Shown: positions 19,228-42,358, counted from the stretch's first letter. The stretch: 64,000 nt of DNA from Strigamia acuminata (GCA_949358305.1 OX442314.1:15872001-15936000), one strand, 5' to 3'. The notes: a model not told the origin generated them from the sequence alone. A program made the numbers and translations.

Positions 19228-20309
19228 TCAGACATTACGAATCATTTCGGTTATTTTAGAGTTCTCGAATTGATAATATTCTGATAATCGTGATAACCAC
19301 GACGCCCATGCGTGATGACATGTTTTATGGTCCATTTCGTGAACGTGACAAGTTTTCCCATCAGGATATGAAATGACAATGATGCCGTTATCAATTTGAA
19401 GTGAATCAGGATTGAAATTCCACGCTCCTAAATACGCAGCCAATTGAACGGGGTTGTCGTATGTATGTTTCAACGTGGGTTTTGGTTTTTGAGACGTTTT
19501 CCATTCGATTAGCACAGTTTTGTCTCTGAAATTAAAGCGATAAAATTTCACGTATCTACACTTTGCGATGTTCTCTTACTGGAACTTTGCTATGCAATCT
19601 ACAACTCCTACATAATTTAAATACGGATGAGTTAGTTTCATTTCCAATGCCAACACGTCGGTTATTTTAGGGAGAAGTGGCGATATGGATTTCCAATGTC
19701 CTTCAACACTTTTCTCGATGTTTAATTGCGATTCGGGAATCCCGTTTAAGAAATCGTGGATGTTTTTGTGGAATTTGTGTCCAGTTGCAAACGTTTCTGA
19801 AAGTAATAAATTGAATTGTCAACTTTGAATAGCAACTTTTATTTTATTTAATCACCTTTAGTGTATTCTGCAAAACCAACTTTTCCCAGTTTTTTTATCA
19901 TTTCAATCCGCCATTTGTCGAGTATAGCCGCGTTTTCGTCTGACATTGTTTTCTGTAGTATTGTTGTTACACTAGGTACTTTAGTATTTCTATCGTAATT
20001 GGATAAGATTCCTTTTGCTAAACTGTTTAAATCTTGAAGGTTATCTCGGTCAACCGCTAATGGGAAGAATGGGGGTTTTGTAGATGGTATTGTTAGTGAA
20101 TTCCGATTGCTGTTAGTGTTGGATGTAATTGTTTTACTCGATCCATCATCGACGCTGTCAATTGCAGTCAGCAATGGTCCACAATTTTCTTTGTCCAAAG
20201 TGGATTTCTTCTGAGTTTTCGTTATTTTACTACTGGCAGTTTTCGAGCTAGCATTTCTGCTATACAATTTAACCACAACAAACCGCGGAATCCTATTAGC
20301 CATAGCCAT
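19228..20309 (-). CDS. MGME1: Mitochondrial genome maintenance exonuclease 1 (PD-(D/E)XK family), 3 exons
   Basis: VPSVTTILQKTM, GHKFH, GVVDCIA, IEWKTS, YDNPVQLAAYLGA, WLSRL. Confidence 0.92.
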
Positions 20310-20546
20310 GCTAAGTTAAATTTGGTTGTTTCGCTGGACCAGCAAGGTGCACCGAGGGTCCAGAGAAGCAGACACTTATTTGCTACGTCGTGCTCTCTAG
20401 TGTCAAATTTCTCAATTACAACTGCTACTAGAATTTGGGCAGCAAATCGTAATTCCAATTTCTGCCCTTCGCTGTTACATTTTAATGTACTTACGATACC
20501 AACAAAAATAGAGATTATAAAGACAATTAATTTTATAATATATATT

Positions 20547-21875
20547 TTATTTATAAGAGAAATTAATATAATTAGCTAATGGCAACTCGCACCGGATTTC
20601 CCAATAAAGTTTTAGCCTTTCTAGCCACAGGTTCCAGTAAGCTAACATTACATCATTTTCAATATTTAATACAAATGCGAGTGATTTATCCGAACTTGGA
20701 ATAATTAATAATATTTCTGTAATCTATAAAAAAATATATAAAAAAAAATTAAATTAGCATAATTGATGTTTATTCAACACTATTACTTCAAATGAATTTG
20801 CTGGATCTGCATTTAATGCTCCTGCGTAAGCTGCTGCTCTAAGTGGTGCATCTTTCAAGTTTCTCACAATTGATGAATCATTGTACGGCAGTAACAATTC
20901 AATCAGCACCAAATGATTCCTAAACAAAAACCAATTACAACTTTAATTCTCGATTCACATTCCATTACTTACTGCCAAATGGCGATACAATCCGCAAGAC
21001 CAGAATAACGTAAATGAGGATGAATTACTTGCTGATTTACATTTACATCAGAAAGAGAATATAAAAAGGGCAACATTGAATTCCAATATGGAGTTACGTT
21101 TTCAGGAAGCCGGATATCTTTTTTCAACGGACAGAAAAACAACTTCATGTATTTTCTTATGGCTACTTCAATCTGGTATAAATCTAAAAGAAAATCTTAA
21201 ACTATTATTCATCTGATCCCGACTGTGGAACTTAGTATTACCGTTCTTGTGTTTGTTAAAAGAATGCCAATTGCACTGGCTGATAGTAGACAAAACTGTT
21301 TCTCTTTCTTCCTTTACATCGTCAGCAGACATCGTTTTCCGTAGTATACTGCTAACTGTTGGCAAGTTTTCAATTTGTAAATCACACTCTGTGCCTTTTT
21401 GCAAAAGGTCAGTCGATCTGGTTTTCAGGTACTGCTCGTTGATAAAAGGATCGGTGGAATTAGCAGAAAACGGATATAGAATCGGTGTATTCGTTGCGAG
21501 ATTTTTGTTCAGTTCGTTAAATATTTGTGCGGGATCAACCGCCCAGTTGGATAAGTTTACTGTCGTTGCATTTCTCGCGTCGCCGAGTTTCACAACAGGA
21601 ATTGGCTGGTCCTTGTATCGGAAGGCAGCCACTTTGTTTTCACTCAACACATTCTTTCCGTCCCTGCGTAAAACTGGTCCAAATAAATACAAGTTTTCCC
21701 AGTTATATCGTTTGATGGCAGCTCCGACTTCAGGATTATTTTTCCGTCTTACCGCGGAAAGCACTTGAAACCGTGACTTTCTTTCCGTGTATGCAAATCT
21801 GCAGCAGTTGACTTGTGACAATCGTTTTACGAGGAGGCTGCTTTCAAATATTTTTTTCATTTTGGGCGCCGCCAT
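20547..21875 (-). CDS. MGME1-like paralogue with degenerate active site, 4 exons, open frame
   Basis: LPTVSSILRKTMS; HPHLRYSGLADCIA; IELLLP in place of IEWKTS; DAPLRAAAYAGALN; YWNLWLERL; stop 20547-20549. Confidence 0.85.
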
Positions 21876-22512
21876 TATGTCAAAAAAATAAAAAGGCAAA
21901 GTCCATCACTTACAAAACAAATGATCAGTGGCGCCATCGGTGGTTGCCATTCAAAATCATGAAAGATGTCAAATTTTAGAAACATTATTTTATTATTGTT
22001 TTGATTCGACTGATTTCTGCTTCCAACGGTGTATCCGTATAAATATAAAAAATTAATTAACTTTCGTCTGCTGAATTGAGTTGATAGTTCTCATCGCCAA
22101 CACTAGGAAATTTATTCCAGCTTCGGCTAGTACCTCTTCTGTTCCCTATTTTTTTTATATTTTTTCTTAAAAACCTTGTTCCCATCTTTAAAAATTAAAT
22201 TTAGCTTACTCCCAAAAAACTCCTGAACAAAGGATAAATATTGCGAAATATTTATTTATTTGTTTAGCAACAGAAATGAAGTCACCAATCATACGATTAA
22301 CATCGTCCAATAGGAGACCACTTTAAGTTTGTCACATGCTTGTTTTGTTGATGATGATAATCTAACAATCGAGAGTTATTACCTCCAAATAATCCGATTG
22401 TTGATACCAGTGCCTTTAATAGAGATACGTAAACATTGCTCGTTCGAAACTACCGATGAAAGCCAGTTGATGGACACAACTCTCTGCAAAAATCGCTTCA
22501 ATATTGCTCGCT

Positions 22513-25859: not shown

Positions 25860-28800
25860 ATGGCTCAAGGTAATTACAATTATTATTGCAAAATTATAAA
25901 TTTTATTATTTTTGTATTTTTGTATTTTTATGTACGTAGGGCGTATTAAAGGAATTCAAGAAGTAGTTTTTGATGAGCTTTGTGGTAAGCTAAAAATTGC
26001 ACGTTAAAATGAACATTTGTATTTCAAAAATATTTTTTCAGACAACAAGATGAAAGAATCTTTCCCGATTATAAGGTCAAGCTCGATTTGCTGCAGCTAC
26101 AGAACGAAACAACAAATTATTACGGGTAAGAACTTTGACATCAAATTTTCAATCTAAACTCTCGAATCTAATGAAATTAAATGATAGTAGGCATATTCAT
26201 TTAGTCATTTTAGCGATAGTGTTTAAGAAACTTAAAGTGCCTTTAAAATTTATGCGGACACTAAAATAATGAAACACGATTTTGATTATTTTGAGAAGAC
26301 TGTGTCTGTAATAATAGTCGTGTAATATAATATCAATCAATTTATAGATACTCTTTCAGTTGTGATTGTGATTAAAGCTTCAAAAATTATTTGAATTTGA
26401 ATTATTTTAGTGTTCGGATAAGATTTAAAGGTGCACAATCGCACACACAGTAGCTACATTTAAAAATTCGTGTTTTAATTGTTTTAGATTTTGTGTTTTT
26501 GTTTTTCAATTTTTTAACATCGCAAATCAAAAACACTAGGTGCATTCCAAAACGTAGTGTTAGGCGTTTTAGGCGTTTCCGTTCCGTGTCGTTTTATGGT
26601 CGTTTTAGGCCTGTTTAGGAACGTCAAAACGAAAAATTTTTTTGCTCTCGTTTTAGCAATTTCGTGTTATGAAATATTTATAAAATATTTAAAAATCTTT
26701 ATGAAATGTTCAAATTCTGACTAATTTTATTTATTTGTGGACCGCAAATGACAATGTTTATAACAGCCGACTAATTCACATCAACAATCGCGCCAAAATC
26801 TACGCACCATCGATGGCAACCCTAACACACAAATCGTGTCTGCTAAAACGTGTTTTCATACACGTTTTCGTTTCAGCCGTGTTAGCGCCACAGACACGGA
26901 ATTTTTCCGGATGTGACGTCATACCTTATAACACGACACGGCTGAAACGGCTGAAACGGGAGTTTTGGAATGCACCTACTAACACCTAAAACTCTTGAAA
27001 AACGACTTTTTGAATGCAGTTGGTAATTTCTGTTAGCTAGCGATAACTCTGGTAATTTCTTTGTAGAGTCGCAAAATTTGAAGCAAACATTAAAAACCAT
27101 CTACCAAAATGTGAAATTGCCGAGAGTTTATTGGCTGGATAAAGGCAGTCCACTGACTACAAAGCAACATTTCATACCACTCAAGCTAGTAGACATTGAA
27201 ACTGAGCAAACTGTTGACAGCAGTTTTCTAATAGGCAAACGTACACTACTCAATTCACAACCAAATTGTGGGAAAACAGTTCTAGCTTGGCGACTCATGC
27301 ATGACTGGGCAGTGGAGAGTGAATACATGAGATCCCTTCAATTGGCTTTCGTTCTGCCTTTGCATCTGCTTAAGTGTAAGCAGTTTACGGACTTAGCAAG
27401 TGCCATTTCAAACTACTACTGCTTTGAAAATCCCAAACAGTTGAAAGCAATTCTAAAACAGAATCCAAGATCGTTATTTGTGCTAGACGGGCTGGATAAA
27501 TTAGGAGAAGAAGAAATCAGCATCTTGTTCGAGTTTTTACTTAAGCCTAAATACGCAGACGCGACAGTCGTCGTTACGTGTAGGACGAATATGAGCCAAC
27601 TTTCCGAGCAAGCGATATCAAAACATTTCGACAATCAAATTCGAATATGTGGAATGGATGTTAAAGATAGAAAGCAATTTATTTCCAAGTTTATTTCCCA
27701 AACGGACAGTAAGAGAGTCGTTAATCACATAGAACTTCTAATAAGACCAATGTCGGATTTGTTCAGTTTGCCGATTTGTGTTTTGAGTTTAGTGAACCAA
27801 ATCAGTCGGAGCCAGCATCTAGCTGCGTTCTCAACTTGGACAAGAACAGACATTCTCAAATCCTTGATCAATTACTTGTGCAGAATGTATCTTCTCGAAG
27901 AAGGAATCACTTTAAGCGAAAGCTTTAACGTGTTCAACAGGAACGACACAATGGCAGCCAAGTTTCGCGACAATTGCGTGCAGTTGGGTAATGTTTGCGT
28001 TGAAAATATATTGAATAAGAAGGAACAATTTAAAGAAAATGCACTAACTAAACAGATTTATAAATACGGTTTAATGAGTTACATTAAAGAGATTGATAAC
28101 GGGTATTTTGTATTTCCACATTCGCCCATGTCGGAGTTAATGGCGGCGGTTTATTTCTGGAACGAGATTCACGCGAACGATTTCAGTTTTACCGAATTAA
28201 ATATTGGCCTGATGAATCAAATGGTAGTTAAGTTTGGAAGGACAACTTTTGTACTTCCATTTCTCGTTGGTTTGCTTAAAGAAAAAGCCGTAGTTTTGTT
28301 CGAACAAATGCATCCGTTCGCCCATTTGTTTTCTTCTCAGGAACTTCTGCTGTGGCGTATGCTAGCGGAGCATAAATCTAATTACGACTTGATCAAAGTC
28401 GTCGACTTTTTGCCGGTGAATGTGCACAGAGATGTGGACGAAGATTTATCAATGTTTTACGCCAGCTCGAGGCACGCCAAATTGGTTAGTGCGGGCATAG
28501 AGAACGGTCGAGTCAAGGGTTTGTTCGTTAAATCCGAATTAACGTTCAATTTACCCGAAGATACCGTTATTCCTGAACTGTATGTTGATAGCAATTTTGA
28601 CTCTAGTTCAGACCCGCTTTACCCTTTGGTTGAAATTCTATCAAAGTGTATGCTTAAGCTTTCCAAGTTAAAATTACTCGAAATTTCAGAGTCACGTGAA
28701 GTGCTTGAATCCAAAATGGAAGCTGTGTTGCCTAATCTGACGAGTTCCTTAACTGAAATTAAAAATCAGCTATTAAATACAAACAGGGATTTAGATACAG

Positions 28801-30131
28801 ATTCGAAACTGTTACAAATCGTGAAAAACACGTTGAAAAATATGAAAACAAAACTCTCTACTTTTTCTTTGAGTAACCAGTCCAAAGTTTTGATTCCATT
28901 GATCGAAGAGATTTTACCAACTCTCGAATCGACATCAGATTTAACGAGATTAAATTGCCAAAATGTTGTGTGGACTTGGGCCGAAAATGTTCACAACAAC
29001 GAGAACACGAGAGACCAAATATGGTCATTTTATACCTCGATCCTTTGTAAACAGAGAGGTTTTTATTTTAATGATATCAAATGTATAAACACGGCGCTAA
29101 ATAAAGAAACTGAAATGAGATCTTTACACTACGAAGTGACGAAGCACAACGCTTATCACTCGGAAATTCTATGCAATTTACTGCAAACTAGTCAATTAGA
29201 GGTGCTAAGTCTAACTTTATTAGACAAATCGTCGTTGCAAATTTTGCACGATATTAGTCCACACCTAGCTTCACTCAAATCGTTAAATTTGACAAATAAC
29301 GCGAAGAATATTGTCGATGTTGATTTATTCATGGACAAAATAACGTTTCCTTTACCCAGGAAGGCTGGATGGCACAGTCTGGTTTTGTTCGACATTAAAT
29401 TGAAACACCATCAAATCGGTGTTCGAGTTTATCATTTGTGCGTCCGAAATTCGGAGCCCGAGACTGTGAGCGCTGTGTCATCGATCGACGTGTCTTTGTT
29501 ACAATGCACGGCGGATCTGTTGTTTAAGTTGCACAATCTCGATTGCAATTGGGCGGGATTCGAATCGGTCGTTGAACTGGGTTTAATGTTAGACAAGCAC
29601 GAAGTTGCGCAGTCCTATGCATTTTGGACAATGGTCGGCTCGTTTAAGCAGCTGCAATTTTTAGAAATTGCTTTTCCAGCTCCACCCATGACTGGGGTTG
29701 GGGAAATTATTAAATGCATTTTTATATTGCCAATTAATCACGTTCTTTTTTCCTACGTCGAGTGGGATTTGGATCTGTTGAGCAAACTTATTTCTTCCTT
29801 GAACCAGAATTTGTCTTTCAATGTTAACGTTAAAACGATTTCTTTGTTGACGCATTTAGATGGGCAAGATACGAGCAAAGTTGGGGTTATTAGGGATCAT
29901 GTAGAGACATTATTGCAACTGTTAAAGCAAGGCCAGTTTGAAAGGTTGCAGATTATTTGTTCTAAATCAAGGTTTTGGCCGTCACTTATGGAGAGACAAA
30001 TGATTGACCCTGTTTTGTTCAGAATCGAGCATTGTTTGTGGGGTAATAACAAGGAAGATCCAGAGACTTACAAAATTTTGCATACTGATTTTCATGCGAT
30101 GTATAACAACTTTACTATTCAGCTAATCTAA
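25860..30131 (+). CDS. NACHT-domain (STAND/NLR-like) protein; probable exons 25860-25869, 25940-25984, 26042-26125, 27067-30131
   Basis: Walker A SQPNCGKT, Walker B FVLDGLDK, sensor-1 VVVTCR, winged-helix FVFPHSPMSELMAAVY, Leu-rich C-terminus. The three small 5' exons join in phase 1 but are less certain. Confidence 0.8.
26539..26976. mobile_element. Non-autonomous TIR element (MITE), 438 bp, in a NACHT gene intron
   Basis: Perfect 15-bp TIR GGTGCATTCCAAAAC...GTTTTGGAATGCACC, TA on both sides, subterminal inverted CCGTGTCGT/ACGACACGG. Confidence 0.85.
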
Positions 30132-31082
30132 ATTTGATGGTGATTGCTGCAATTGTGAATGTGCCTTTAATGACATTGCTATACATATTGTTATAAAAGT
30201 CAAATTTATTTTTTGTTTGCTTGTTTGCAATTGCCATGTTTATTTTTGTATTTAAAAAGCATAGAACTGCTGTAACTGCAGTGCATGTCATTTTGTCTTG
30301 GTTGTAAAGAATGATTGTACATTTTGCAAAAATTTGTGTAGCTTTATTTTGTGTGTTCTATTCTAACAATTTAACATTAAATGTTCGAATCATGTATTTT
30401 ATTAAATCGTTATTTAACCTGTTGTTATAAAAATCCCTTTTATTTTGATATTTGTTGATCCTTTGATCAGCCAATCAGGAATTTCCTAATGACGAATATT
30501 TAAAAGCAAAGAACACTTATATGTATGCACTTAAGATGTAACTTTTTTAATTGCATGTAATACAATTAATAAAACAGATTATATACTTTTGGCTTTCAAA
30601 CTTAGAAATTTAATTTATTTGAAATAAGAAAACAATTACTGATAAGCTTTTTGGTACTAAATAACACTTATCATGTTGTAATACTTATCGTACTGTACAA
30701 TATACAGTCCATACTGACCACCAACTTCAATTATGGTTCTCCCAGTTGACAGTGCGAATACAGGGTTGGGTCCTTAAGAAAGTCGTCCCACAAATTGCAA
30801 AAATGGAGGTTATTATTATCAATCCAATCAATATTATTGCTGAATAAATCTCAGATAATATTTACAACAGCAGGCAATACATTTAAGAATGTGTCACTGG
30901 GCGGCGTTTATAACAATGAAATTTCCAGGATTCCTTACATAAGCAAATCGTCGCCATATTCTCCATAATTTCAAAATTTTGAGTATTTATAACCCCCTCT
31001 TCACGATAAAGTAAATTAATACCATATGTTTTAACAAAAGGTATTTTTATTTAAAAAAAAAAAGTAATAAGAAAGAGTTGCT

Positions 31083-31454
31083 ATGTCCTCAAATTCCTCA
31101 TCTGTCATCAGACCTAACAAAACACGACTTGAAATTCTGGCTCAACCAAAGAAACAGAGGACTATAAAATATAAGCCTATGGTTTATAGGTCCGAACTTG
31201 CAAGTACAGCGTTCAGAAAAAATGAAGCCATGAATTCCTTCGTTAAGAAGACTCGTGGGGTTGCGATCGAGCATCCGCCAATCAGAGTTGCGAAAAGCAA
31301 GAAGCAAATGCACTGCGACAGATGTGGGTCGGAAGTATCTTACATGGCACCTCGAGATAACCGAGCATCAATTTTAAGACTACGGAACGTGAAAGTGAAA
31401 AAAGAGTTGCCCGATTGGCTTATTGTGCATCCTGGAGATTGGAACTGGTGTTAA
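31083..31454 (+). CDS. Small basic protein of unknown function, copy A (123 aa)
   Basis: ATG-initiated ORF conserved in copy B with an in-frame 9-nt indel; RLEILAQPK motif, CDRC and HPGDWxWC. Confidence 0.6.
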   Translation: MSSNSSSVIRPNKTRLEILAQPKKQRTIKYKPMVYRSELASTAFRKNEAMNSFVKKTRGVAIEHPPIRVAKSKKQMHCDRCGSEVSYMAPRDNRASILRLRNVKVKKELPDWLIVHPGDWNWC

Positions 31455-32224
31455 AGTTCCCCATTGAATCATACGGACATAAAATCGTAGAGTTGCAGAG
31501 GGGGATAAAGCAAGAAAATACAAGCAAATACAAGAAAATCTAAAAAAAATACACGAAATACAAGTAATACAAGAAATTCAAGAAAATATAAGAAATACGA
31601 GAAACTTTTCTTTACTGAAAACTTTAATTAACTGGTTGAAAAATAATTTTCTAAAAAATCTAACTTAAACATTCTAATAGTTTTATTAAAAGTTTTATTT
31701 TTTTTTTACTTTTGTTATGATAAGATAAATAAATTTTGCAAAATATCCTTTATAGGGTCAATATGGTTTGTTTCATTTCTGACGAACGAGGAAATGTCTT
31801 AAGGAAACTAACACTTCTTAATTATTCGAACTTGTAAGACATTTTTGATTTTACGTTTAATTATACATAACGTTTACTTAAATTTTAAAATTGCAAATAA
31901 TTTTGACTATCAAAACAAAATCTGTTTTTTTTTTGTTAAAAAGTTTGTTTGGATTAATTTCTTGACTTTGATTCGTGATTTGTTCCAACGGAAAATAAGG
32001 GATAGGGTGTATTAAGAATTGACAAAAGGATATTCCCTTAAGAATGTCAACAAAAAACAGGAAGCATCAACGACAGACATATATATATATAGATGAAACT
32101 TTAAGAGTGGAACCACTGTGATTTTTGGATTGTACAAACTAGGTATAATACATTTAAATTTATTAGATTTATTACAAATACTTCTTTCTTCTAGCTTTAC
32201 AGGTGAAATTCAATTCAATTTATT

Positions 32225-33273
32225 ATGCAGTGGGTGTTGACAGTTTTAACGATAGTAGTTTATGTCGTCCAAGTTACAACAAATGGTAATTATTGTCTTA
32301 TAACCATGTCCCGTGCTAGTAGTGTGTAACTTTTTTCTTAGAGGAAGAACCACAGGCTTTAGATTTGGATTATGCTAACCAGCTGTATCCTGATGATAAA
32401 GATGACGACGAAAGTCTCCCTGAAGACGCAGGCTTTTGTAAGAACTATAAATTGTATAGCTTGGGCGAAATGCTAATGAAGTATGAAAATCTGATTGTTA
32501 CTGTTAAATTAATCCTGGCTCGATAGATCTACTTGTATAGTGTTCTATTTTTAGCATTTAGCATTGTGTTTATTTGTAAATTGCGTTTTCCTTTGAATCC
32601 AGCATTTAGCATTTTAACACTTTAAAAGTAGAAGGGTTTTTATTCAATTCGATTCAAATCTTAGTTGATGTTCTATTCTATCTAACATTCACTAAACTAG
32701 GTCGTAGCCCAGTGGATTATTTCTAAAAGTAATACAATAATAAAACGTTCCTAATTGGCAAAAGATTTTGTACTTACGAAAATTGCGCGTTTTTCTTGAA
32801 TTTCAATCTCCAAACCACACTATCACATAAAAGAACTTATTCACACACACATTGCTATAGTTTTGAATGTTCAGCGTGCGGTGATGCTTTTTGGGGTTTG
32901 TGGAACTTGTGGTGCCTTGAGGGATAGTTTAGAGCATTAATTATTATTTTTTCTCATTACTATTATTTATTTATTTTTAGTAACAAAAGCATGGTGTAGA
33001 ATACGATGTTTCGGAAGCAAATGCTGTGGAAAAGGAGCTTGTCAATGCCAGAAATTGACTGACGAAAACAAGAATTTAGCGCCAAACTCAGGATCCTTCG
33101 GATCTCAGCCAGGATATATGGGACCGCAGCCGGGGCATAGGGGATCTCGGCCGGGACGTGTGGAACCTCGACCTAGGTATATGGGACCTCGCCCGGGGTT
33201 TATGGGACCTCCGCCACACCTTCGTGGGCGTATGGGCCCCCATTGGAAGCCCTGGGTGGTTGAAGGTCGCTAA
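32225..33273 (+). CDS. Secreted Cys-rich plus Pro/Gly-rich peptide precursor, copy A (171 aa; exons 32225-32285, 32342-32437, 32861-32926, 32981-33273)
   Basis: All junctions GT-AG phase 1. Translation: MQWVLTVLTIVVYVVQVTTN / EEEPQALDLDY...DAGFFLNVQR / AVMLFGVCGTCGALRDITKAWCRIRCFGSKCCGKGACQC / Pro-Gly tail ending EGR. Confidence 0.75.
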
Positions 33274-33485
33274 AATAAATGTGGCAAACAATTTTACAAA
33301 ACTTAATTCCTGTTTTTGTTTGAAAATAATAATAATAATCTTGGAAATATAATCGGGCAAATATATATACATATATTTATTTTCTTAAAAAAATAATAGT
33401 GTAGTAATGTATGAACATCAGAAAATGCAGCAGATGTTAATTGTATTTAGGCTGGATAAAATTAATAAATGAAATAGATTGAATG

Positions 33486-36400
33486 GTGGAGTCGCCTCTA
33501 ATTGTGGAATCGCATCTAATTGGTGTGGAATCGCCTCTAATTTTGGTGTGGTCAACGGTATCATTTCCACGGCAACATCTGTTTCAATGTAACGTCTAAC
33601 ATGGGTGATGTTCCGCTTCAAAATTCTCCCATCTGGTGTTTTCAAAACAATGCAGTTTTTCTTCTTATTTAAAACTGTCATTATTTCCTCATGAAATGCT
33701 GTGTCAAGTTTATGTTTTCGAATCTTTGACAACAAAACCTTGTCTCCAATCCGAATACTGCTCTGTTCCGATTTTCGAACTCGATCCGCATACAATTTCA
33801 ATTTTTCTTTTTCTGCGTCGTCTTTTGCTCGAACGGCGTTAAATAATCTCCCTCTTTCCGTCTTCGAGATCTGCGGCAATTTTGTTCGCATCATTCGTCC
33901 TGTCATCAGCTGGTATGGTGCCTTCCTTGTTGTTCGATGCTCGGTGCATCTGTCCGATTGTAGAAATTCACCGAGGGCAGATTTCCAGTTTTTTCCTTCT
34001 ATTTGCGCAGCACGAAATGCCTTGACAAATGATTTGTTCAGTCTTTCAACAGTGCCGTTGGCCTGGGGCCAATACGGCGTGACACGGCGATGACTAATGC
34101 CACATTCTTCAAGAAATAATCGAAATTGCTCCGACACGAACTGTGGTCCGTTGTCGGACACGATCGTTTCTGGAATTCCCCAGCAATCGAATACGTCGCG
34201 CAACCATGCAACTATTTGCTCCGCTTTTGTTGACTTCATGATTTTGGCCTCTGGCCATCTGGAGAAATAATCCACGACTACGACGACTGAATTCCCGTCG
34301 AGGAATGGCCCGCAAATATCGATTGCGATGTCCCTCCAGGGTCCCTTGGGCAACGGCGTATTTATCACTGGTTCTGACCATTCTGTCTTCCCTCCAAACT
34401 GACTTGCTCGACATCCACGAATGACTTTTTCGACATCTTCATCAATATTAGGCCACCAGACCTTTTCACGGAGTCGCTGCTTCGTACGGACAATTCTCTG
34501 ATGGCCTTGGTGGGCCAATAGATTAACTTTGGTCCGCAAGCTCTTCGGGACGACAATCCTCGTTCCGCTCAGCAACACTCCCTTTGAAAACGCCAATTCA
34601 TGTCGCATGGTCTCGAAACGGCTCAAAACCGCCGGAAATCGTTTTCCTTCATCGATACACCTCTTCAAATCTCGAATCTCCTCATCCGCCGCTGACATTC
34701 GCTCTATCTCCATCAATGTCATTGCCTTTGGTATCGCATTTGCGAGTACGAAATGCACATGGCGCTCACTTTTCCCGACAAATCCTTTTCCTTCGTCCAG
34801 GGGTAACATTCTGGAAAGTGCATCAGCTATATTCGATGCTCCCGGCTTATGACGAATTCTAAATTCAAAGGGTTGTAGGCGGAGCACCCATCGTTCAATT
34901 CGTGCGGATGGCTTCGAACGGGTCGAGTAGATGACCTCGAGTGCCTTGTGGTCTGTAATGAGCTGAAATTGATTTCCAATTAGAAAAATTCTAAATTTTT
35001 CACAGCCCCAAACGACTGCAAGGGCTTCTCGTTCTGTTTGCGAGCATTTTTGCTCGACACCCGACAACGTCCGGCTCGCGTAAGCGATAGGCTTTTTGTT
35101 TCCATCTGGTTGTCGCTGGACAAGCACGGCGCCAAGTCCGACTGGCGACGTGTCCACGAGCTGCGTCTCTGCGCCCTTTTTAAAGAACGCCAATGTCTCG
35201 GCGGCGCACATTGCTGTCTTCAAACGTTCGAAAGCTCTTTGCTGCTTTTCACCCCATCGAAAAACGTTCTCTTTCCTTGCGACTTCACGCAATGGCTCAG
35301 CAGTTGTCGCAAAATTTGGTATGTAACGCGCACAGAAGTTGACAAGACCAAGGAAACTTCTCACCTTGGTTTTATTCTTTGGTGGTACTGTCTGTTTAAC
35401 TGCCAAAACCTTTTGCTCGGCAATGGAAATCCCATTTCTAGAAATCACATGGCCGAGAAAATCCAATCGATCCAATCCGAACCGACACTTCTTCAAATTA
35501 AGCGTTAGTCCATTATCGCTCAAAACCTGCAAAATTTTCTTCAACCGTTGGTCATGTTCCTATACGGTCCTTCCATGGATAATAATGTCATCAAGACTAT
35601 TCTTGGCGCCATCGCAGCCTTCCAACAATGTCTGTATGATACGTTGGTATTCCTCGGGGGCTGACGCCACACCGAAGAACAACCGTTTGTACCTAAACAA
35701 TCCCCTGTGCGTCACAAAAACTGTGTATTTTCGAGATGATTCTCGCAACGGGATCTGAAGGTATCCCCAACGGCAATCCAATTTCGTTATTACTTCTGCA
35801 CCGTCAATTTCCTCCAGGATCTCTGCGATCGTCGGCAGTGGATGTCGGCACCGTTTCATGGCCTCGTTGACGGCCCGCATATCGAGGCAGATCCGCACTG
35901 ACCCGTCTGGTTTTGCAACCGGAACCATGGGCGAAACCCTCTCTGTTGGGCCGCTTATGGGTTCTATTATATCCTGTTTCAAAAAAATGTCAATCTCTTC
36001 ATCAACTTTCTTACGGATATTAAACGGAATTCGTCGCACCGCCTGTGCGACCGGCTTCACCGTCGGGTTCATATACAGATCCAGCTCGAAATTCTTAAGT
36101 TTGCCGATTTCATTAAACATCTCTTCGTGTGGAATAATCATTTGCGCCAATTCGTCTCTCAAAGCATCCATTGCTGCCCTAAATGTTGACTCGTCCTTCA
36201 CTGCACGCACGTCTTCCTTTTTAAACTTTACAAGTTCCAAATCTTCTGACGTGGTTTTTCCTAACAATGAAACATTTCCCGAAGGCACAACAATAAACTT
36301 GGCTTTTACTTTCCTATCTCGTGTCCGAATTACGGCGTCAAACTGTCCACTAGTTTCCAACGGTCTCGAGCATCCATACGAGAAAATCTTCATCGCGGTT

Positions 36401-38219
36401 GGTTACAACTCCAATCCTTGTTTTTTCAAAATTTTTCACGTGTTGGTGACCTTGGTGTCAATTAAATTGACTGACGAGCCCGAATCAACCAGTACACGCA
36501 CGTGTCGGTCCTCGATCCGTACCTGCACACAGTCTTTAGTCATAATTGAATTGATATTAAAACAATACTCATCCTCGCTGTGTTCATTCACGCCCAGTGT
36601 TGGGCACGGTACCCCCAACGAGTACCGCGGTACAAGTACGCGGTACTTGCGCCGGCGGTGAAAAGTATCGCGGTCCCGGTACGCGGTACCTAGTGCGGTA
36701 CCGCGGTACCGGTATGCGGTATAAGCAGCTTCCGCAAAAAGTACCGCGGTCCCGGTACAGTACCGGTACCGGGATTTTGCGGTACTCTTGCGGTACTTGG
36801 GAAAACGCGAGAAAACACGAGATTCTCGTGGATTCTCGTGTTTTCTCCCGTTTTCCACTTTTTTTTAAAAGTTGATGTTTACACTCATTTAAAATGAGTA
36901 TAAACATCAATAACCATTAAAATCGCATTAAAAGCTTATTAATAATAAACTTTTAATGTGATTTTGCCACTCGTCTGCCACCCGAACACCGAACAAATTA
37001 ACGGGCGGGCGGACGGGTCTTCGGGCAGGGCGGGCGTTTTACCTTGTGCCAGTTCGAATCGTAACGTCTCAACGACGTTACGATTTTAGACAACTTTAAC
37101 GTGGAAAACGGGATAAAACACGTGAATCTCGTGTTTTCTCGCGTTTTCCCGAATACCGCGAGAGTACCGCAGGACGCCGAAAGTACCGCGGTACAAGTAT
37201 CCGATACTACCGGAGACTGCAAGAAGTACCGCGGTACCGGTACTCAGCTTGAACAAAAGTACCGCGGTACAGGCTGCGGTACTGTACCGGTACCGGCGGT
37301 ACTGGTAACGCCGGTACCGGTACTGTACCGTGCCCAACACTGTTCACGCCAACGAATTGTACTCGATCCGTCCCTCGACCTCGTCCTCTTCCGTTTCTCA
37401 ATCGACACACCTTCACAAAGTGCCCCTTTTTATGGCAAAAAGAGCACTCTTTATCTTTTGCAATGGTGCAATCGTTTGCGAAATTTCCGGGTCGTCCACA
37501 GCGAAAACACTCGAGATTTCCTTTTGATCTGCCATCCTGTTTTTCCTCTGCTTGTGTCGGCTTTTCCCCACTTTTCCAGAATTTTCCACGTCCTTTTGGT
37601 TTTCCACGTCTTCGAAAATTCCCTTTTTCACCAACAATTCTATTTACCAATTCCTCCTTCGACGTTTTGCCACTGAAATCTTTCTCGATCACGTCGGCTT
37701 GACGTTCACTCGCCTCAGCCGCACGCGTGAGTGTTAACAATTTTACCAAAGTTAACGCCTCTTCTCGCAACAAACGACGACGAAGGACTTTGTCCCGTCC
37801 TTTATCTAGAACCTGGTCAACAATCATGTCCTCCTCCAACTGGGCAAATTCACAATTGCTTAACGCCGCTTTCAATCTTGTAACATAGGCGTCCATGGCT
37901 TCCGTAGATTCCTGCACTATTTGGCGAAACACATGTCTCTCGTAACAAAGGTTCTTTTTTGGCGAAAAATACGCACTCAACGCTGCAGTCGCTGTGGCAT
38001 AATCCGCACGTTCCTCCTTCGTAAACGTTGCAAAGATCTTTTGTACCTCTGGGCCAGTCAAATGAAGCAACATATGGCTTTCTTCTGAGCGTTGGCCTTC
38101 ACGTCTGCTGCAACCAGGTAGTAACCAAATGACTCAGTCCACATTTTCCAATGCTGATCCAGATTTCCTTCCGACATTTCAAATCGCCCGATCGTCGGCA
38201 AGTTGAAATTTGCGGCCAT
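33486..38219 (-). pseudogene. gag-pol polyprotein pseudogene
   Basis: ATG 38219; frameshift near 38075; MITE insertion; in-frame stops at 36436, about 36405 and 35560. Confidence 0.9.
36595..37342. mobile_element. hAT-type MITE, copy 1 (748 bp), nested in gag-protease
   Basis: 18-bp TIR CAGTGTTGGGCACGGTAC; 8-bp TSD TTCACGCC at 36587-36594 and 37343-37350. Confidence 0.95.
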
Positions 38220-38351
38220 TTTCAAAAACAGTTCCCTTCGTGATTTCGTACAAATTCACCTGCAAACAGGTAGCTAAGCTATCCAAAATGACTTGCACAC
38301 ACAAATGTTCTTGGATGGTTAATCTTCGCGCAAATACTGGTGGATTACGAA

Positions 38352-38365
38352 CATCCTCGTCGCCA
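38352..38365 (-). promoter_or_regulatory. Primer-binding site TGGCGACGAGGATG
   Basis: 2 nt inside the LTR; complementary to the 3' end (CATCCTCGTCGCCA) that I recall for animal tRNA-Ser(GCU). Confidence 0.8.
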
Positions 38366-38367
38366 TT

Positions 38368-38523
38368 TGTCATACTGCTGCATAAATAAATAGACTCGAA
38401 AGTAGGATGTATAAGAGTGACTGTTTATTCACTGTGCTCAGGCTTATAACACCTGGCGGCACATGACTTTGAACACAACGCCATCTAGTGGCCAATTACA
38501 TAAATGCACATGTAAACACGACA
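38368..38523 (-). repeat. 5' LTR, 156 bp
   Basis: TGTC...GACA termini, internal TATAA and AATAAA on the minus strand, followed by the PBS. Confidence 0.85.
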
Positions 38524-38679
38524 CCAGGATTCCTTACATAAGCAAATCGTCGCCATATTCTCCATAATTACAAAATTTTGAGTATTTATAACCCCCTCTT
38601 CACTTTAAAGGAAATAAATACCATATGTTTTAACAAAAGGTATTTTTATTTTAAAAAAAAGTAATGAGAAAGAGTTGCT

Positions 38680-39042
38680 ATGTCCTCATCTGTCATCAGA
38701 CCTAACAAAACACGACTTGAAATTCTGGCTCAACCAAAGAAACAGAGGACTATAAAGTATAAGTCTATAGTTTATAGGTCCGAACTTGCAAGTACAGCGT
38801 TCAGAAAAAATGAAGCCATGAATTCCTTCGTTAAGAAAACTCGTGGGGTTGCGATCGAGCATCCGCCAATCAGAGTTGTGAAAAGCAAGAAGCAAATGCA
38901 CTGCGACAGATGTGGGGAAGAAGTATCTTACATGGCACCTCGAGATAACCGAGCATCAATTTTAAGACTACGGAACGTGAAAGTGAAAAAAGAGTTGCCC
39001 GATTGGCTTATTGTGCATCCTGGAGATTGGAAATGGTGTTAA
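38680..39042 (+). CDS. Small basic protein of unknown function, copy B (120 aa)
   Basis: Paralogue of 31083-31454, frame intact. Confidence 0.6.
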   Translation: MSSSVIRPNKTRLEILAQPKKQRTIKYKSIVYRSELASTAFRKNEAMNSFVKKTRGVAIEHPPIRVVKSKKQMHCDRCGEEVSYMAPRDNRASILRLRNVKVKKELPDWLIVHPGDWKWC

Positions 39043-39093
39043 AGTTCCCCATTGGGACGTAAAATCGAAGAGAGTTGCAGAGGGGAATAATGG

Positions 39094-39332
39094 CAAGAAA
39101 ATACAAGAAAATACAAGAAAATACATGAAGTACAAGAAAATCTAAAAAAAATACAAGAAATACAAGAAAATACAAGAAAATCTAAAAAAAATACAAGAAA
39201 ATCTAAAAAAAATACAAGAAAATCTAAAAAAAATACAAGAAAATCTAAAAAAAATACAAGAAAATCTAAAAAAAATACAAGAAAATCTAAAAAAATACAA
39301 GAAATACAAGAAAATACAAGAAATACGAGAAA
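39094..39332 (+). repeat. A-rich tandem array of (A)AAATACAAG and 21-bp AAAATCTAAAAAAAATACAAG units
   Basis: Expanded relative to the shorter array in copy A (about 31511-31603). Confidence 0.9.
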
Positions 39333-39945
39333 CTTTTCTTTACTGAAAACTTTAATTAACTGGTTGAAAAATAATTTTCTAAATAATCTAACCTAAACAT
39401 TCTAATAGTTTTATTAAAAGTTTTATTTTTTTTTTACTTTTGTTATGATAAGATAAATAAATTTTGCAAAATATCCTTTATAAGGTCAATATTGTTTGTT
39501 TCGTTTCTGACGAACGAGGAAACTAACACTTCTTAATTATTCGAACTTGTAAGACATTTTTAATTTTATGTTTAATTATACATAACATTTACTTAAATTT
39601 TAAAATTGCAAATAATTTTGACTATCAAAACAAAATCTGTTTTTTTTTTGTTAAAAAGGTTGTCTTGATTAATTTCTTGATTTTGATTTGTGATGTGTTC
39701 CAACGGAAAATAACGGATAGGGTGTATTAAGAATTGACAAAAGGATATTCTCTTAAGAATGTCAACAAAAAACAGGAAGCATCAACGACAGACATATATA
39801 TATGGATGAAACTTTAAGACTGGAACCACTGTGATTTTTGGATGGTACAAACTAGGTATAATACATTAATACATTTAAATTTATTAGATTTATTGCAAAT
39901 ACTTCTTTCTTCTAGCTTTACAAGTGAAATTCAATTCAATTTATT

Positions 39946-41735
39946 ATGAAGTGGGTGTTGACAGTTTTAACGATAGTAGTTTATGTCGTCCAAGTTACAA
40001 CAAATGGTAATTATTGTCTTAAAACCATGTCTCATGCTAGTAGTGTGTAACTTTTTTCTTAGAGGAAGAACCACAGGCTTTAGATTTGGATTATGCTAAC
40101 CAGCTGTATCCTGATGATAAAGATGACGACGAAAGTCTCCCTGAAGACGCAGGCTTTGGTAAGAACTATAAATTGTATAGCATGGGCGAAATGCTAACGA
40201 AGTATCAAAATCTGATTATTACTGTTAAATTAATCCTGGCTCGATTGATCTACTTGTATAGTGTTCTATTTTTAGCATTTAGCATTGTGTTTATTTGTAA
40301 ATTGCATTTTCCTTTGATTCCAGCATTTAGCATTTTAACACTTTAAAAGTAGAAGGGTTTTTATTCAATTCGATTCAAATCTTAGTCGATGTTCTATTCT
40401 ATCTGTAACATTCACTAAACTAGGTCGTAGCCCAGTGGATTATTTCCAGTGTTGGGCACGGTACCCCCAACGAGTACCGCGGTACAAGTACGCGGTACTT
40501 GCGCCGGCGGTGAAAAGTATCGCGGTCCCGGTACGCGGTACCTAGTGCGGTACCGCGGTACCGGTATGCGGTATATGCAGCTTCCGCAAAAAGTACCGCG
40601 GTCCCGGTACAGTACCGGTACCGGGATTTTGCGGTACTCTCGCGGTACTTGGGAAAACGCGAGAAAACACGAGATTCTCGTGTTTTCTCCCGTTTTCCAC
40701 TTTTTTTTTAAAAGTTGATGTTTACACTCATTTAAAATGAGTATAAACATCAATAACCATTAAAATCGCATTAAAAGCTTATTAATAATAAACTTTTAAT
40801 GTGATTTTGCCACTCGTCTGCCACCCGAACACCGAACAAATTAACGGGCGGGCGGACGGGTCTTCGGGCAGGGCGGGCGTTTTACCTTGTGCCAGTTCGA
40901 ATCGTAACGTCTCAACGACGTTACGATTTTAGACAACTTTAACGTGGAAAACGGGATAAAACACGTGAATCTCGTGTTTTCTCGCGTTTTCCCGAATACC
41001 GCGAGAGTACCGCAGGGCGCCGAAAGTACCGCGGTACAAGTATCAGATACTTCCGGAGACTGCAAGAAGTACCGCGGTACCGGTACTCAGCTTGAACAAA
41101 AGTACCGCGGTACAGGCTGCGGTACTGTACCGTGCCCAACACTGATTATTTCTAAAAGTAATACAATAATAAAACGTTCCTAATTGGCAAAAGATTCTGT
41201 ACTTACGAAAATTGCGCGTTTTTCTTGAATTTCAATCTCCAAACCACACTATCGCATAAAAGAACTTATTCACACACATATTGCTATAGTTTTGAATGTT
41301 CAGCGTGCGGTGATGCTTTTTGGTGTTTGTGGAACTTGTGGTGCCTTGAGGGATAGTTTGGAGCATTAATTATTATTTTTTCTCATTACTATTATTTATT
41401 TCTTTTTAGTAACAAAAGCATGGTGTAGAATACGATGTTTAGGAAGCAAATGCTGTGGAAAAGGAGCTTGTCAATGCCAGACTGACGAAAACAATAATTT
41501 AGCGCCAAACTCAGGATCCTTCGGATCTCAGCCAGGATATATGGGACCGCAGCCGGGGTATAGGGGATCTCGGCCGGGACGTATGGAACCTCGACCTAGG
41601 TATATGGGACCTCCCCCGGGGTTTATGGGACCTCCCCCGGGGTTTATGGGACCTCCCCCGGGGTTTATGGGACCTCCCCCGGGGTTTATGGGACCTCCGC
41701 ACCTTCGTGGGCGTATGGGCCGTGGGCCCCCATAG
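39946..41735 (+). CDS. Secreted Cys-rich plus Pro/Gly-rich peptide precursor, copy B (182 aa; exons 39946-40006, 40063-40158, 41290-41355, 41410-41735)
   Basis: Same splice sites as copy A; all 8 Cys kept; (GPPPGFM)x4 expansion; MITE lies in intron 2. Confidence 0.75.
40447..41144. mobile_element. hAT-type MITE, copy 2 (698 bp)
   Basis: Same TIR; 8-bp TSD ATTATTTC at 40439-40446 and 41145-41152; the empty site with a single ATTATTTC is at 32716-32723 in copy A. Confidence 0.97.
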
Positions 41736-42358
41736 GAAGCCCTGGATGGTTGAGGGTCGCTAAAATAAATGTGGCATACAATTTTACAAAACTTAATTTC
41801 TGTTTTCGTTTGAAAATAATAATAATAATCTTGGAAATATAATCGGGCAAATATATATACATATATTTATTTTTCTTAAAAAAATAATAGTATAGTAATG
41901 TATGAACATCAGAAAATGCATCAGATGTTAATTGTATTTAGGCTGGATAAAATTAATAAATGAAATAAATTGAATGTTCTGAAGTAAAAAGCAGTGTCCT
42001 AGTGTCGTTATTAAAAAATGTGTCCAATGTCTTGGTTACGTGGAAGAAAAAATAAATTTGAACTTTGGTAATCTCCGAATCTAAAGGTCGATTCAAGATT
42101 CGTTTATAAGTGTGAAATCGATCTGTAATAGAGATAATAAGTCTTAACTTACACACTTTTTTTCCATTTGAATTACCCGCTAATTTTAATACAGTATTCT
42201 GTGTTTATAAAACGCCTTGTTTCGTGTAAACGAGAAACGAAATATCACACTCTATGACGTCACATTGAAAATCATTTAGCAGCTGAACATTTCAAGGACG
42301 CGAGTTAATAAAAAATTGTCGTGTTGATTTTCCAAGTTTTTCTGGTATTTATTTCATT

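What the first reader, a model, noticed from the sequence alone, without database searches (positions are those of the whole stretch)
32225..41735. Hidden duplicated gene for a secreted 8-Cys defensin/toxin-like precursor with a Pro/Gly-rich tail
Seen: four small phase-1 exons in each duplicate splice into one frame. It reads hydrophobic signal peptide, acidic propeptide ending NVQR, cationic domain with spacing C-x2-C-x10-C-x3-C-x4-CC-x4-C-x-C, then a Pro/Gly/Arg tail. Copy A ends in GR, a possible amidation signal. Known: signal + acidic pro + Cys-rich mature peptide is typical of arthropod defensins and venom peptides; CxxxC...CxC is the cysteine-stabilised alpha-beta signature; penaeidins combine Pro-rich and Cys-rich domains in the opposite order. 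Inference: a host-defence or toxin peptide family I do not recognise. Exon 3 has a weak donor (GTTTAG/GTTTGG), but its one A/B difference is synonymous in this frame and including it supplies the processing site.
Basis: partly seen in the sequence, partly recalled or inferred. Interest (0 to 1): 0.85.

Follow-up and report, generated by a model that had tools for sequence, protein, structure and literature searches.

The report
Duplicated defensin-like gene with proline tail
An unidentified invertebrate genome carries two neighbouring copies of a predicted four-exon gene for a likely secreted defence peptide, whose cysteine spacing matches short scorpion toxins at seven of eight positions and which ends in a long proline/glycine-rich tail not found on any animal defensin in our searches.

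Summary
Both copies give one open frame over four phase-1 exons (171 and 182 aa): signal-like start, acidic spacer (net -11), 8-Cys domain (+6), Pro/Gly/Arg heptad tail. The signal-exon and cysteine patterns each occur only at these two copies in 64 kb (simulated means 0.025 and 0.04). Two DNA runs support a real duplication. No RNA run was listed, so splicing is untested, and exon 3 has weak splice sites.

An amphipathic helix crosses that junction. This supports both the gene model and a CS-alpha-beta fold, with the fourth disulfide partner moved. The exact pattern is absent from Tarr's superfamily table.

No homologue or fold match was found, but the host lineage is poorly sampled and only exon-4 fragments were folded. 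It is not a chlorotoxin-family member. Best reading: a lineage-specific defensin-like host-defence peptide with a Pro-rich tail (about 0.5). New variant of a known kind.

The parts
30925..33485 (+). Duplicated unit, copy A
   Evidence: self-blastn blocks; assembly graphs of two DNA runs break at 30925/30954 and near 33447/33476
32080..32090 (+). TATA-like run upstream of copy A (B: 39795); promoter role inferred
32143..32194 (+). Likely 52-nt 5'UTR intron (GT...AG); B has an 8-bp insertion here
32225..32285 (+). Copy A exon 1: signal-peptide-like hydrophobic segment
32342..32437 (+). Copy A exon 2: acidic propeptide
32861..32926 (+). Copy A exon 3: putative Arg cut site, CxxC and start of the helix; weak splice sites, GC island 31/66
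32981..33273 (+). Copy A exon 4: six Cys, linker, 21-bp-period Pro/Gly/Arg tail, ends GR-stop
33274..33279 (+). AATAAA directly after the stop (a second at 33464)
33486..38527 (-). Ty3/Gypsy-type LTR retrotransposon between the copies: one LTR (about 38369-38527) with primer-binding-site-like sequence, gag, pol; cut off at its 3' end, with an in-frame stop and an inserted element
36595..37342 (.). Non-autonomous element with terminal inverted repeats and an 8-bp target duplication (hAT-like; label recalled), inside the retrotransposon
38524..41976 (+). Duplicated unit, copy B
39946..40006 (+). Copy B exon 1
40063..40158 (+). Copy B exon 2
40447..41144 (.). Second copy of the inverted-repeat element, in intron 2 of copy B, with an 8-bp target duplication
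41290..41355 (+). Copy B exon 3
41410..41735 (+). Copy B exon 4: 6-bp deletion after the Cys domain, 60 bp of extra tail repeat, 7-bp insertion giving a different, earlier end

Best explanation
Two adjacent gene copies encode a predicted secreted precursor of a likely defensin-type (CS-alpha-beta) host-defence peptide carrying a Pro/Gly/Arg-rich tail. Shown: the frame, the charge layout, the Cys spacing and the duplication. Inferred: the signal peptide is removed; the acidic spacer (-11) masks the cationic mature part (+13 in A, +10 in B) until it is cut at Arg58; the domain folds as an amphipathic helix (about residues 72-84) tied to a short hairpin by C69-C90, C80-C95 and C84-C97, as in scorpion short insectotoxins; the fourth bond joins C66 to C89 instead of to a helix cysteine. 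The cationic domain would bind microbial surfaces. The unfolded tail would add a Pro/Arg-rich binding arm, as in penaeidins and arasins but in reverse order, or be trimmed. The copy likely arose by rearrangement next to an LTR insertion; which copy is older is not known.
For: Only two such signal-exon and Cys patterns in 64 kb. TATA-like run, likely UTR intron and AATAAA. Introns of 54-56 nt fit the genome's mode: 25 of 41 predicted introns are 53-70 nt. Exon 3 is a GC island, 31/66 against 129/423 for intron 2, binomial p 0.004. The 32926 donor gives 7 of 8 Cys in register with Bs-Tx7 and 1SIS; the four other donors and exon skipping give 5 of 8; null probability 1.6e-4 to 2.4e-4 for a single reference. 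Helix 72-82 spans the junction with hydrophobic moment 0.88, reached by 0.3% of shuffles (best of 8 windows). A C4-C6 gap of 5 is known in solved CS-alpha-beta peptides (BmP07, 1SIS). Signal peptide, split charge, Cys pattern, tandem paralogues and lineage restriction are described for Hydra antimicrobial peptides.
Against: No RNA evidence either way. Exon-3 splice sites are the weakest scored, and an alternative donor after 32911 scores better and gives a 5-residue loop. The ab initio parse missed exon 3 in both copies, exon 2 in A and the Cys part of exon 4. There is almost no similarity outside the cysteines (2 of 25 other positions against Bs-Tx7, counted by eye). No purifying-selection signal: 7 non-synonymous to 1 synonymous; exon against intron divergence p 0.16. 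No kappaB-like site upstream in a crude scan.
Confidence: 0.5

Rival explanations
1. Same gene and fold, but a structural, adhesive or reproductive secretion (glue, eggshell, spermatophore or seminal peptide): the repetitive tail does the work and the Cys head cross-links or anchors it.
For: The tail is longer than the Cys domain and is a 21-bp-period repeat that has expanded in B. Its only Pfam hints are below cut-off repeat families (pericardin-like E 1.6). Plant defensin-polyproline proteins use a Pro-rich tail as a possible wall anchor.
Against: An acidic spacer that nearly balances a cationic mature part, and a defensin-like Cys register, fit defence peptides better.
Confidence: 0.18
2. 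A venom or salivary toxin acting on ion channels of prey or predators, like scorpion short insectotoxins.
For: The best Cys match is to scorpion Cl-channel toxins. Centipede toxin transcripts can carry linear peptides after the Cys-rich one (SLPTX9). Tarr notes that spacing cannot separate toxin from antimicrobial for six-Cys sequences.
Against: Host not shown to be venomous. [quoted passage not shown] None of the centipede patterns listed matches. Tardigrade defensins fall in the same Cys class. Only two copies were seen in the window.
Confidence: 0.12
3. The gene is real but spliced otherwise (exon 3 skipped or shortened), giving a 6-Cys peptide or an 8-Cys peptide with a 5-residue loop, possibly with another fold.
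For: All five exon-3 donors and skipping keep the frame; the donor after 32911 scores 0.28 against -4.19. GTTT donors were 1 of 41 in the training set.
Against: GC stays high up to 32926 (8 of 15 nt) and then falls to 8 of 54. The Cys register and the amphipathic helix appear only with the 32926 donor. The scorer also ranked a canonical GTAAGA donor below all training sites, so it is noisy.
Confidence: 0.13
4. One or both copies are unexpressed or decaying (B has a late frameshift and an element in intron 2).
For: 7:1 non-synonymous to synonymous differences; B's 7-bp insertion; transposon-rich setting.
Against: All 8 Cys, all splice dinucleotides and the frame through the Cys domain are intact in both copies; the indels just after the domain and in the tail repeat are in frame.
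Confidence: 0.07

Closest known systems
Scorpion short insectotoxins / chlorotoxin-like peptides (M. eupeus insectotoxin PDB 1SIS, Bs-Tx7, chlorotoxin 1CHL)
   Same: 8 Cys; gaps 2, 10, CxxxC, 5, 4, 1 agree with 1SIS and Bs-Tx7 at 7 of 8 positions without indels. The three core bonds of chlorotoxin (5-28, 16-33, 20-35) map onto C69-C90, C80-C95 and C84-C97.
   Different: The helix Cys (chlorotoxin C19) is missing and an extra Cys sits beside C6. No CCGG motif. Almost no similarity outside Cys. Long acidic propeptide, 70-80-residue tail and three coding introns, against one small intron in the signal peptide of chlorotoxin-like genes.
Invertebrate CS-alpha-beta defensins (insect, tick, tardigrade; Tarr 2016 array)
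   Same: CxxxC ... CxC helix-clamp motif, n-loop of 10 (insect range 4-16), C6-C8 gap of 4. Tardigrade defensins 3, 7 and 8 also start with CxxC.
   Different: C4-C6 gap of 5 against the usual 9-10. No row of the table has this pattern. Pro/Gly/Arg tail.
Penaeidins, arasins, hyastatins, stylicins (crustacean chimeric antimicrobial peptides)
   Same: A Pro(/Arg)-rich region joined to a Cys-rich domain in one peptide.
   Different: Opposite order; 4, 6 or 13 Cys where the review gives a number, not this 8-Cys pattern.
Plant defensin-polyproline-linked proteins (Art v 1, Amb a 4, Par h 1)
   Same: Same order: defensin head, flexible Pro-rich tail.
   Different: Asteraceae pollen proteins; plant defensin Cys arrays differ; no Pfam or PDB match here. 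An analogy only.
Hydra periculins
   Same: Signal peptide, anionic then cationic region with 8 Cys, tandem paralogues, lineage-restricted.
   Different: Hydra-specific; their Cys spacing was not seen in the passages read, so it was not compared.

Membership tests
CS-alpha-beta superfamily | CSH motif: CxxxC and CxC (array C3, C4, C8, C9) | tested here: met
   C80/C84 and C95/C97 (definition)
CS-alpha-beta superfamily | C2 and C6 at spacings seen in members | tested here: met
   10,3,5,4,1 core; a gap of 5 occurs in BmP07 and 1SIS; depends on exon 3
CS-alpha-beta superfamily | Helix plus two antiparallel strands with those disulfides | tested here: inconclusive
   Amphipathic helix signal; exon-4 models without helix, low pTM, no fold match; spliced domain not folded
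CS-alpha-beta superfamily | Profile or sequence match to a known member | tested here: not met
   No Pfam hit for any single exon, no relevant PDB sequence hit; only single exons were scanned, which lowers power
Chlorotoxin-like / short insectotoxin family | Adjacent helix cysteines (C19-C20) and the I-IV bond | tested here: not met
   Arg at that position; the CC pair lies at C89-C90
Chlorotoxin-like / short insectotoxin family | CCGG motif and 49-88% identity among members | tested here: not met
   Motif absent; 9 of 32 identical to Bs-Tx7, 7 of them Cys (counted by eye)
Chlorotoxin-like / short insectotoxin family | Gene with a single intron in the signal peptide | tested here: not met
   Three coding introns
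Potassium-channel toxins (KCXN signature) | KCXN at C6 with a short n-loop | tested here: not met
   Signature; absent, n-loop of 10
Penaeidin / arasin type | Pro-rich region N-terminal to the Cys domain | tested here: not met
   Order reversed
Antimicrobial peptide (function) | Killing or growth inhibition of microbes; immune-tissue expression | not testable with these tools
   No RNA holder listed; needs an assay
Secreted precursor | Signal peptide call by a predictor and mapped cleavage sites | not testable with these tools
   Only hydropathy was computed (9-residue mean up to 2.4); no SignalP on hand

The most novel reading that the evidence does not exclude
A new animal defensin architecture: a compact chlorotoxin-register CS-alpha-beta domain with a fourth disulfide (C1 to the Cys beside C6) not listed in the superfamily array, fused to a cationic Pro/Arg tail that stays on the mature peptide. 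It would be an animal counterpart of plant defensin-polyproline proteins, and a non-scorpion route to the short-insectotoxin scaffold.
Probability: 0.3. Interest if true: 0.68.

Novelty: new variant of a known kind. Interest (0 to 1): 0.45.

Why it matters
Defence peptides of little-studied invertebrate lineages are missed by annotation because they are short, split over tiny exons and have no homologues; this gene is invisible to every search tried. If the model holds, it adds a new cysteine pattern and domain order to the CS-alpha-beta superfamily. It offers a small synthesisable scaffold for antimicrobial testing, and it bears on whether the chlorotoxin spacing arose once or several times. 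The two copies differ mainly in tail length and C-terminus, a natural pair for testing what the tail does. It is one more lineage-specific peptide in a large known superfamily, not a new mechanism.

Tried and rejected
Expression: no RNA holder listed. Both runs laid show no splice joints and cover the introns, so they behave as DNA.

Homologue searches, all blank: word search with the exon-4 Cys region; HMMER over 1.84 billion representatives with 51 residues of exon 4, 0 hits at E 0.001; ESM Atlas with the Cys part and with all of exon 4; Pfam; PDB sequences, one irrelevant hit at E 0.95. Metagenome scan: 2 of 369 candidate stretches passed; both match only a short tail motif inside unrelated, Cys-poor 590-aa ORFs and were rejected.

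Structure: AlphaFold2 on exon-4 pieces was uninformative.

Host: the METTL26 tree (75 rows: the query, 34 named and 40 unnamed of 120 hits) did not place the host. No whole genome is held, so further paralogues could not be sought; none besides A and B in the window.

Haplotypes assembled in tandem: considered and judged unlikely.

Other frameworks: ICK/tatritin, centipede SLPTX patterns and mytimycin arrays do not fit. WAP, hevein, snakin, EGF-tenascin, trissin and conotoxin framework XII were set aside on recalled spacings and the blank Pfam scans. Paralithocin and periculin spacings were not visible in the passages read.

Earlier findings: three look-ups returned nothing.

Full report
Setting. 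The window is a gene-dense, AT-rich animal sequence. Pfam identifies STT3, METTL26, a two-pore potassium channel, a lipid-droplet hydrolase and a NACHT protein. Short introns dominate: 25 of 41 introns predicted by my crude parser in nine other gene regions are 53-70 nt. The host is not identified. METTL26 is at most 54% identical to any of the 120 hits listed. The best named hit of an MCM3 piece is a tick protein at 54%, and a tree did not place the query. A non-insect arthropod is my guess. What is shown is that no close relative appeared among the hits, so blank searches for a fast-evolving peptide say little about novelty. No whole genome is held.

The observation. Both copies splice into one frame over four exons with GT-AG, phase-1 introns (coordinates under parts). 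Copy A gives 171 aa and copy B 182 aa, each with Cys gaps 2,10,3,4,0,4,1. In A, residues 1-20 are hydrophobic, 21-58 carry net -11, 59-99 carry +6 and the tail from 116 carries +8 with 13 Pro, 11 Gly and 9 Arg in 56 residues. Two independent patterns occur only at these copies. A relaxed six-Cys motif occurs 2 times (simulated mean 0.04; 8 of 200 simulations had any). A signal-like first exon followed by a 50-71-nt intron and an open second exon occurs 2 times (mean 0.025; 1 of 40). A TATA-like run, a likely 52-nt UTR intron and AATAAA right after A's stop complete the picture. I put the gene's reality at about 0.9.

The duplication. The unit is 30925-33485 against 38524-41976. Between the copies lies a Ty3/Gypsy element with one LTR that abuts copy B and a 3' end cut off at copy A. 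Two DNA runs of one study hold both A-type and B-type contigs. Their graphs break at the unit's ends, and one X1 contig (33447-34400) bridges the junction of A with the element. Depth is 99.8 on the flank in X1 against 120+75 for the two types, and 331-338 against 235+288 in X2. The tool warns that depth is no copy number, and one run may be close to the source, but the pattern fits two loci better than two alleles. The copies differ by 4 of 297 bases in exons 1 to 4-Cys and 16 of 533 in introns (p 0.16). Among codons 1-98 and 101-150, 7 differences are non-synonymous and 1 is synonymous. So the pair gives no evidence of purifying selection. B has a 6-bp deletion after the Cys domain, 60 bp of extra tail repeat and a 7-bp insertion that gives it a different end without GR.

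Exon 3, the weak point. Its donors and A's acceptor scored below all 41 training sites, GTTT donors were 1 of 41, and the parser missed it. The scorer is noisy: it also ranked A's canonical GTAAGA donor below all. Seventeen open phase-1 middle exons are possible in this span, five of them from the 32861 acceptor. First, the exon is a GC island (31/66 against 129/423; no 66-nt window of intron 2 exceeds 25), and GC stays high to 32926. Second, residues 72-82, which cross the junction, form an amphipathic helix with moment 0.88, reached by 0.3% of 20,000 shuffles (best of 8 windows, so about 2%). Third, the cysteine register described next (all).

What it resembles. I recalled that chlorotoxin-like peptides begin C-x2-C-x10-C and then checked it. 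Table 1 of PMC4773789 (passages) gives Bs-Tx7 cysteines at offsets 0,3,14,17,18,24,29,31; this peptide has 0,3,14,18,23,24,29,31. Seven of eight coincide without gaps, while the four other donors and exon skipping give five. The chance for one reference is 2.4e-4 with the span fixed, or 1.6e-4 with the CxxxC/CxC motif forced. Tarr's reference array (PMC5116183: passages; all five parts of supplement 1, 533 rows including headers) lists M. eupeus insectotoxin 1SIS as 2,10,2C,5,4,1 and chlorotoxin as 2,10,2C,7,4,1. In that notation this peptide is 2,10,3,4C,4,1, and no row has it. Five tardigrade defensins are filed in the same class, so the class is not scorpion-only. Chlorotoxin's bonds are 2-19, 5-28, 16-33 and 20-35, and simulations found that loss of 2-19 is well tolerated (PMC6470725, passages). 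The three core bonds map onto C69-C90, C80-C95 and C84-C97, leaving C66 and C89 to pair (inference; the geometry is untested, and C89 and C90 could swap roles).

Membership. It likely works like a CS-alpha-beta peptide and meets the cysteine criteria, but the fold is unconfirmed. Only exon-4 pieces were modelled; they showed no helix, with pTM 0.31 and 0.12, and the first had no structural match. It is not a chlorotoxin-family member. The helix CC pair and the CCGG motif are absent, identity outside Cys is 2 of 25 by eye, and chlorotoxin-like genes have one intron in the signal peptide (PMC4234519, passages). The KCXN channel-toxin signature is absent. None of the centipede patterns in Table 1 of PMC4379518 (passages) matches. 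Penaeidins, arasins, hyastatins and stylicins place the Pro-rich part first (PMC11767717, passages). The same order as here is found in plant defensin-polyproline proteins (PMC10281898, passages). PMC10254560 (passages) reports that five chlorotoxin cysteines align with scorpion disulfide-bridged antimicrobial peptides. PMC10945409, PMC8984021, PMC7391757 and PMC8004829 were seen as passages. Nine literature searches (listings only, except the papers named) showed no animal defensin with a C-terminal Pro/Gly tail or this pattern. The library lacks most subscription journals, alignments in figures were not visible, and supplements other than Tarr's file 1 were not read.

How it most likely works. 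Shown: frame, charges, spacing, duplication. Inferred: secretion; masking of the cationic mature part (+13 in A, +10 in B) by the acidic spacer; a cut at the lone Arg58 (A has no dibasic site); a compact helix-hairpin that binds microbial surfaces; an unfolded Pro/Arg tail that adds binding or is trimmed; amidation of A only. I give host defence 0.5, a structural or reproductive secretion 0.18, another splice form or fold 0.13, a venom role 0.12 and decay 0.07. The NACHT gene 800 bp upstream of the unit weakly resembles NLRP6 and NLRP3 (E 0.001 and 0.006), but in so compact a genome adjacency means little, and I do not count it.

Searches for relatives were blank, all with single-exon queries, which lowers their power.

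Verdict. A real, recently duplicated, hidden gene; probably a lineage-specific defensin-like peptide with an unlisted cysteine variant and an unusual tail. New variant of a known kind.

Noticed in passing
window 27027-30131 (+): A 1034-codon uninterrupted ORF with a NACHT domain (Pfam E 1e-16), a degenerate P-loop, four LxxLxL-type motifs in its second half and weak similarity to NLRP6/NLRP3: a possible NLR-like receptor, which I recall as uncommon in arthropods.
   Followed up: partly
window 31083-31454 and 38680-39042 (+): A second ORF inside the duplicated unit (123 and 120 codons), open in both copies with an in-frame 9-bp indel, no Pfam hit, a CxxC and a short motif recalling THEG repeats (recalled). 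5 of 7 codon differences are non-synonymous. Gene or element remnant unknown.
   Followed up: partly
window 36595-37342 and 40447-41144: Two 98% identical copies of a 700-750-bp element with terminal inverted repeats, GTAC-rich subrepeats and 8-bp target duplications (hAT-like; label recalled); one sits in the retrotransposon, one in intron 2 of copy B.
   Followed up: yes
window 33486-38527 (-): Ty3/Gypsy element with only one LTR; its 3' end joins copy A at a short shared sequence, and its LTR abuts the start of copy B, which suggests a link to the duplication.
   Followed up: partly
window 31511-31604 and 39094-39332: A-rich 9-21-bp satellite inside the duplicated unit, expanded from about 94 to 239 bp in copy B.
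   Followed up: no
window 19848-20315 and 21168-21905 (-): Two neighbouring ORF pieces with similar segments (PSVTTILQKTMS and PTVSSILRKTMS), possibly tandem paralogues of a mitochondrial exonuclease-like gene (label recalled).
   Followed up: no
window about 30560-31060: Many contigs of both runs pile up here with loose ends near 30765 and 31042-31063, which suggests a short multicopy element close to the left end of the duplication.
   Followed up: no
window 32555-32575 (+): A 21-nt open phase-1 segment in intron 2 with a strong acceptor and a GTAAAT donor but low GC; a possible micro-exon that would lengthen the propeptide.
   Followed up: no
whole window: Two conserved proteins (METTL26, MCM3 C-terminal piece) were only 51-54% identical to their best hits, so the host lineage seems poorly sampled in the protein collection.
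   Followed up: partly
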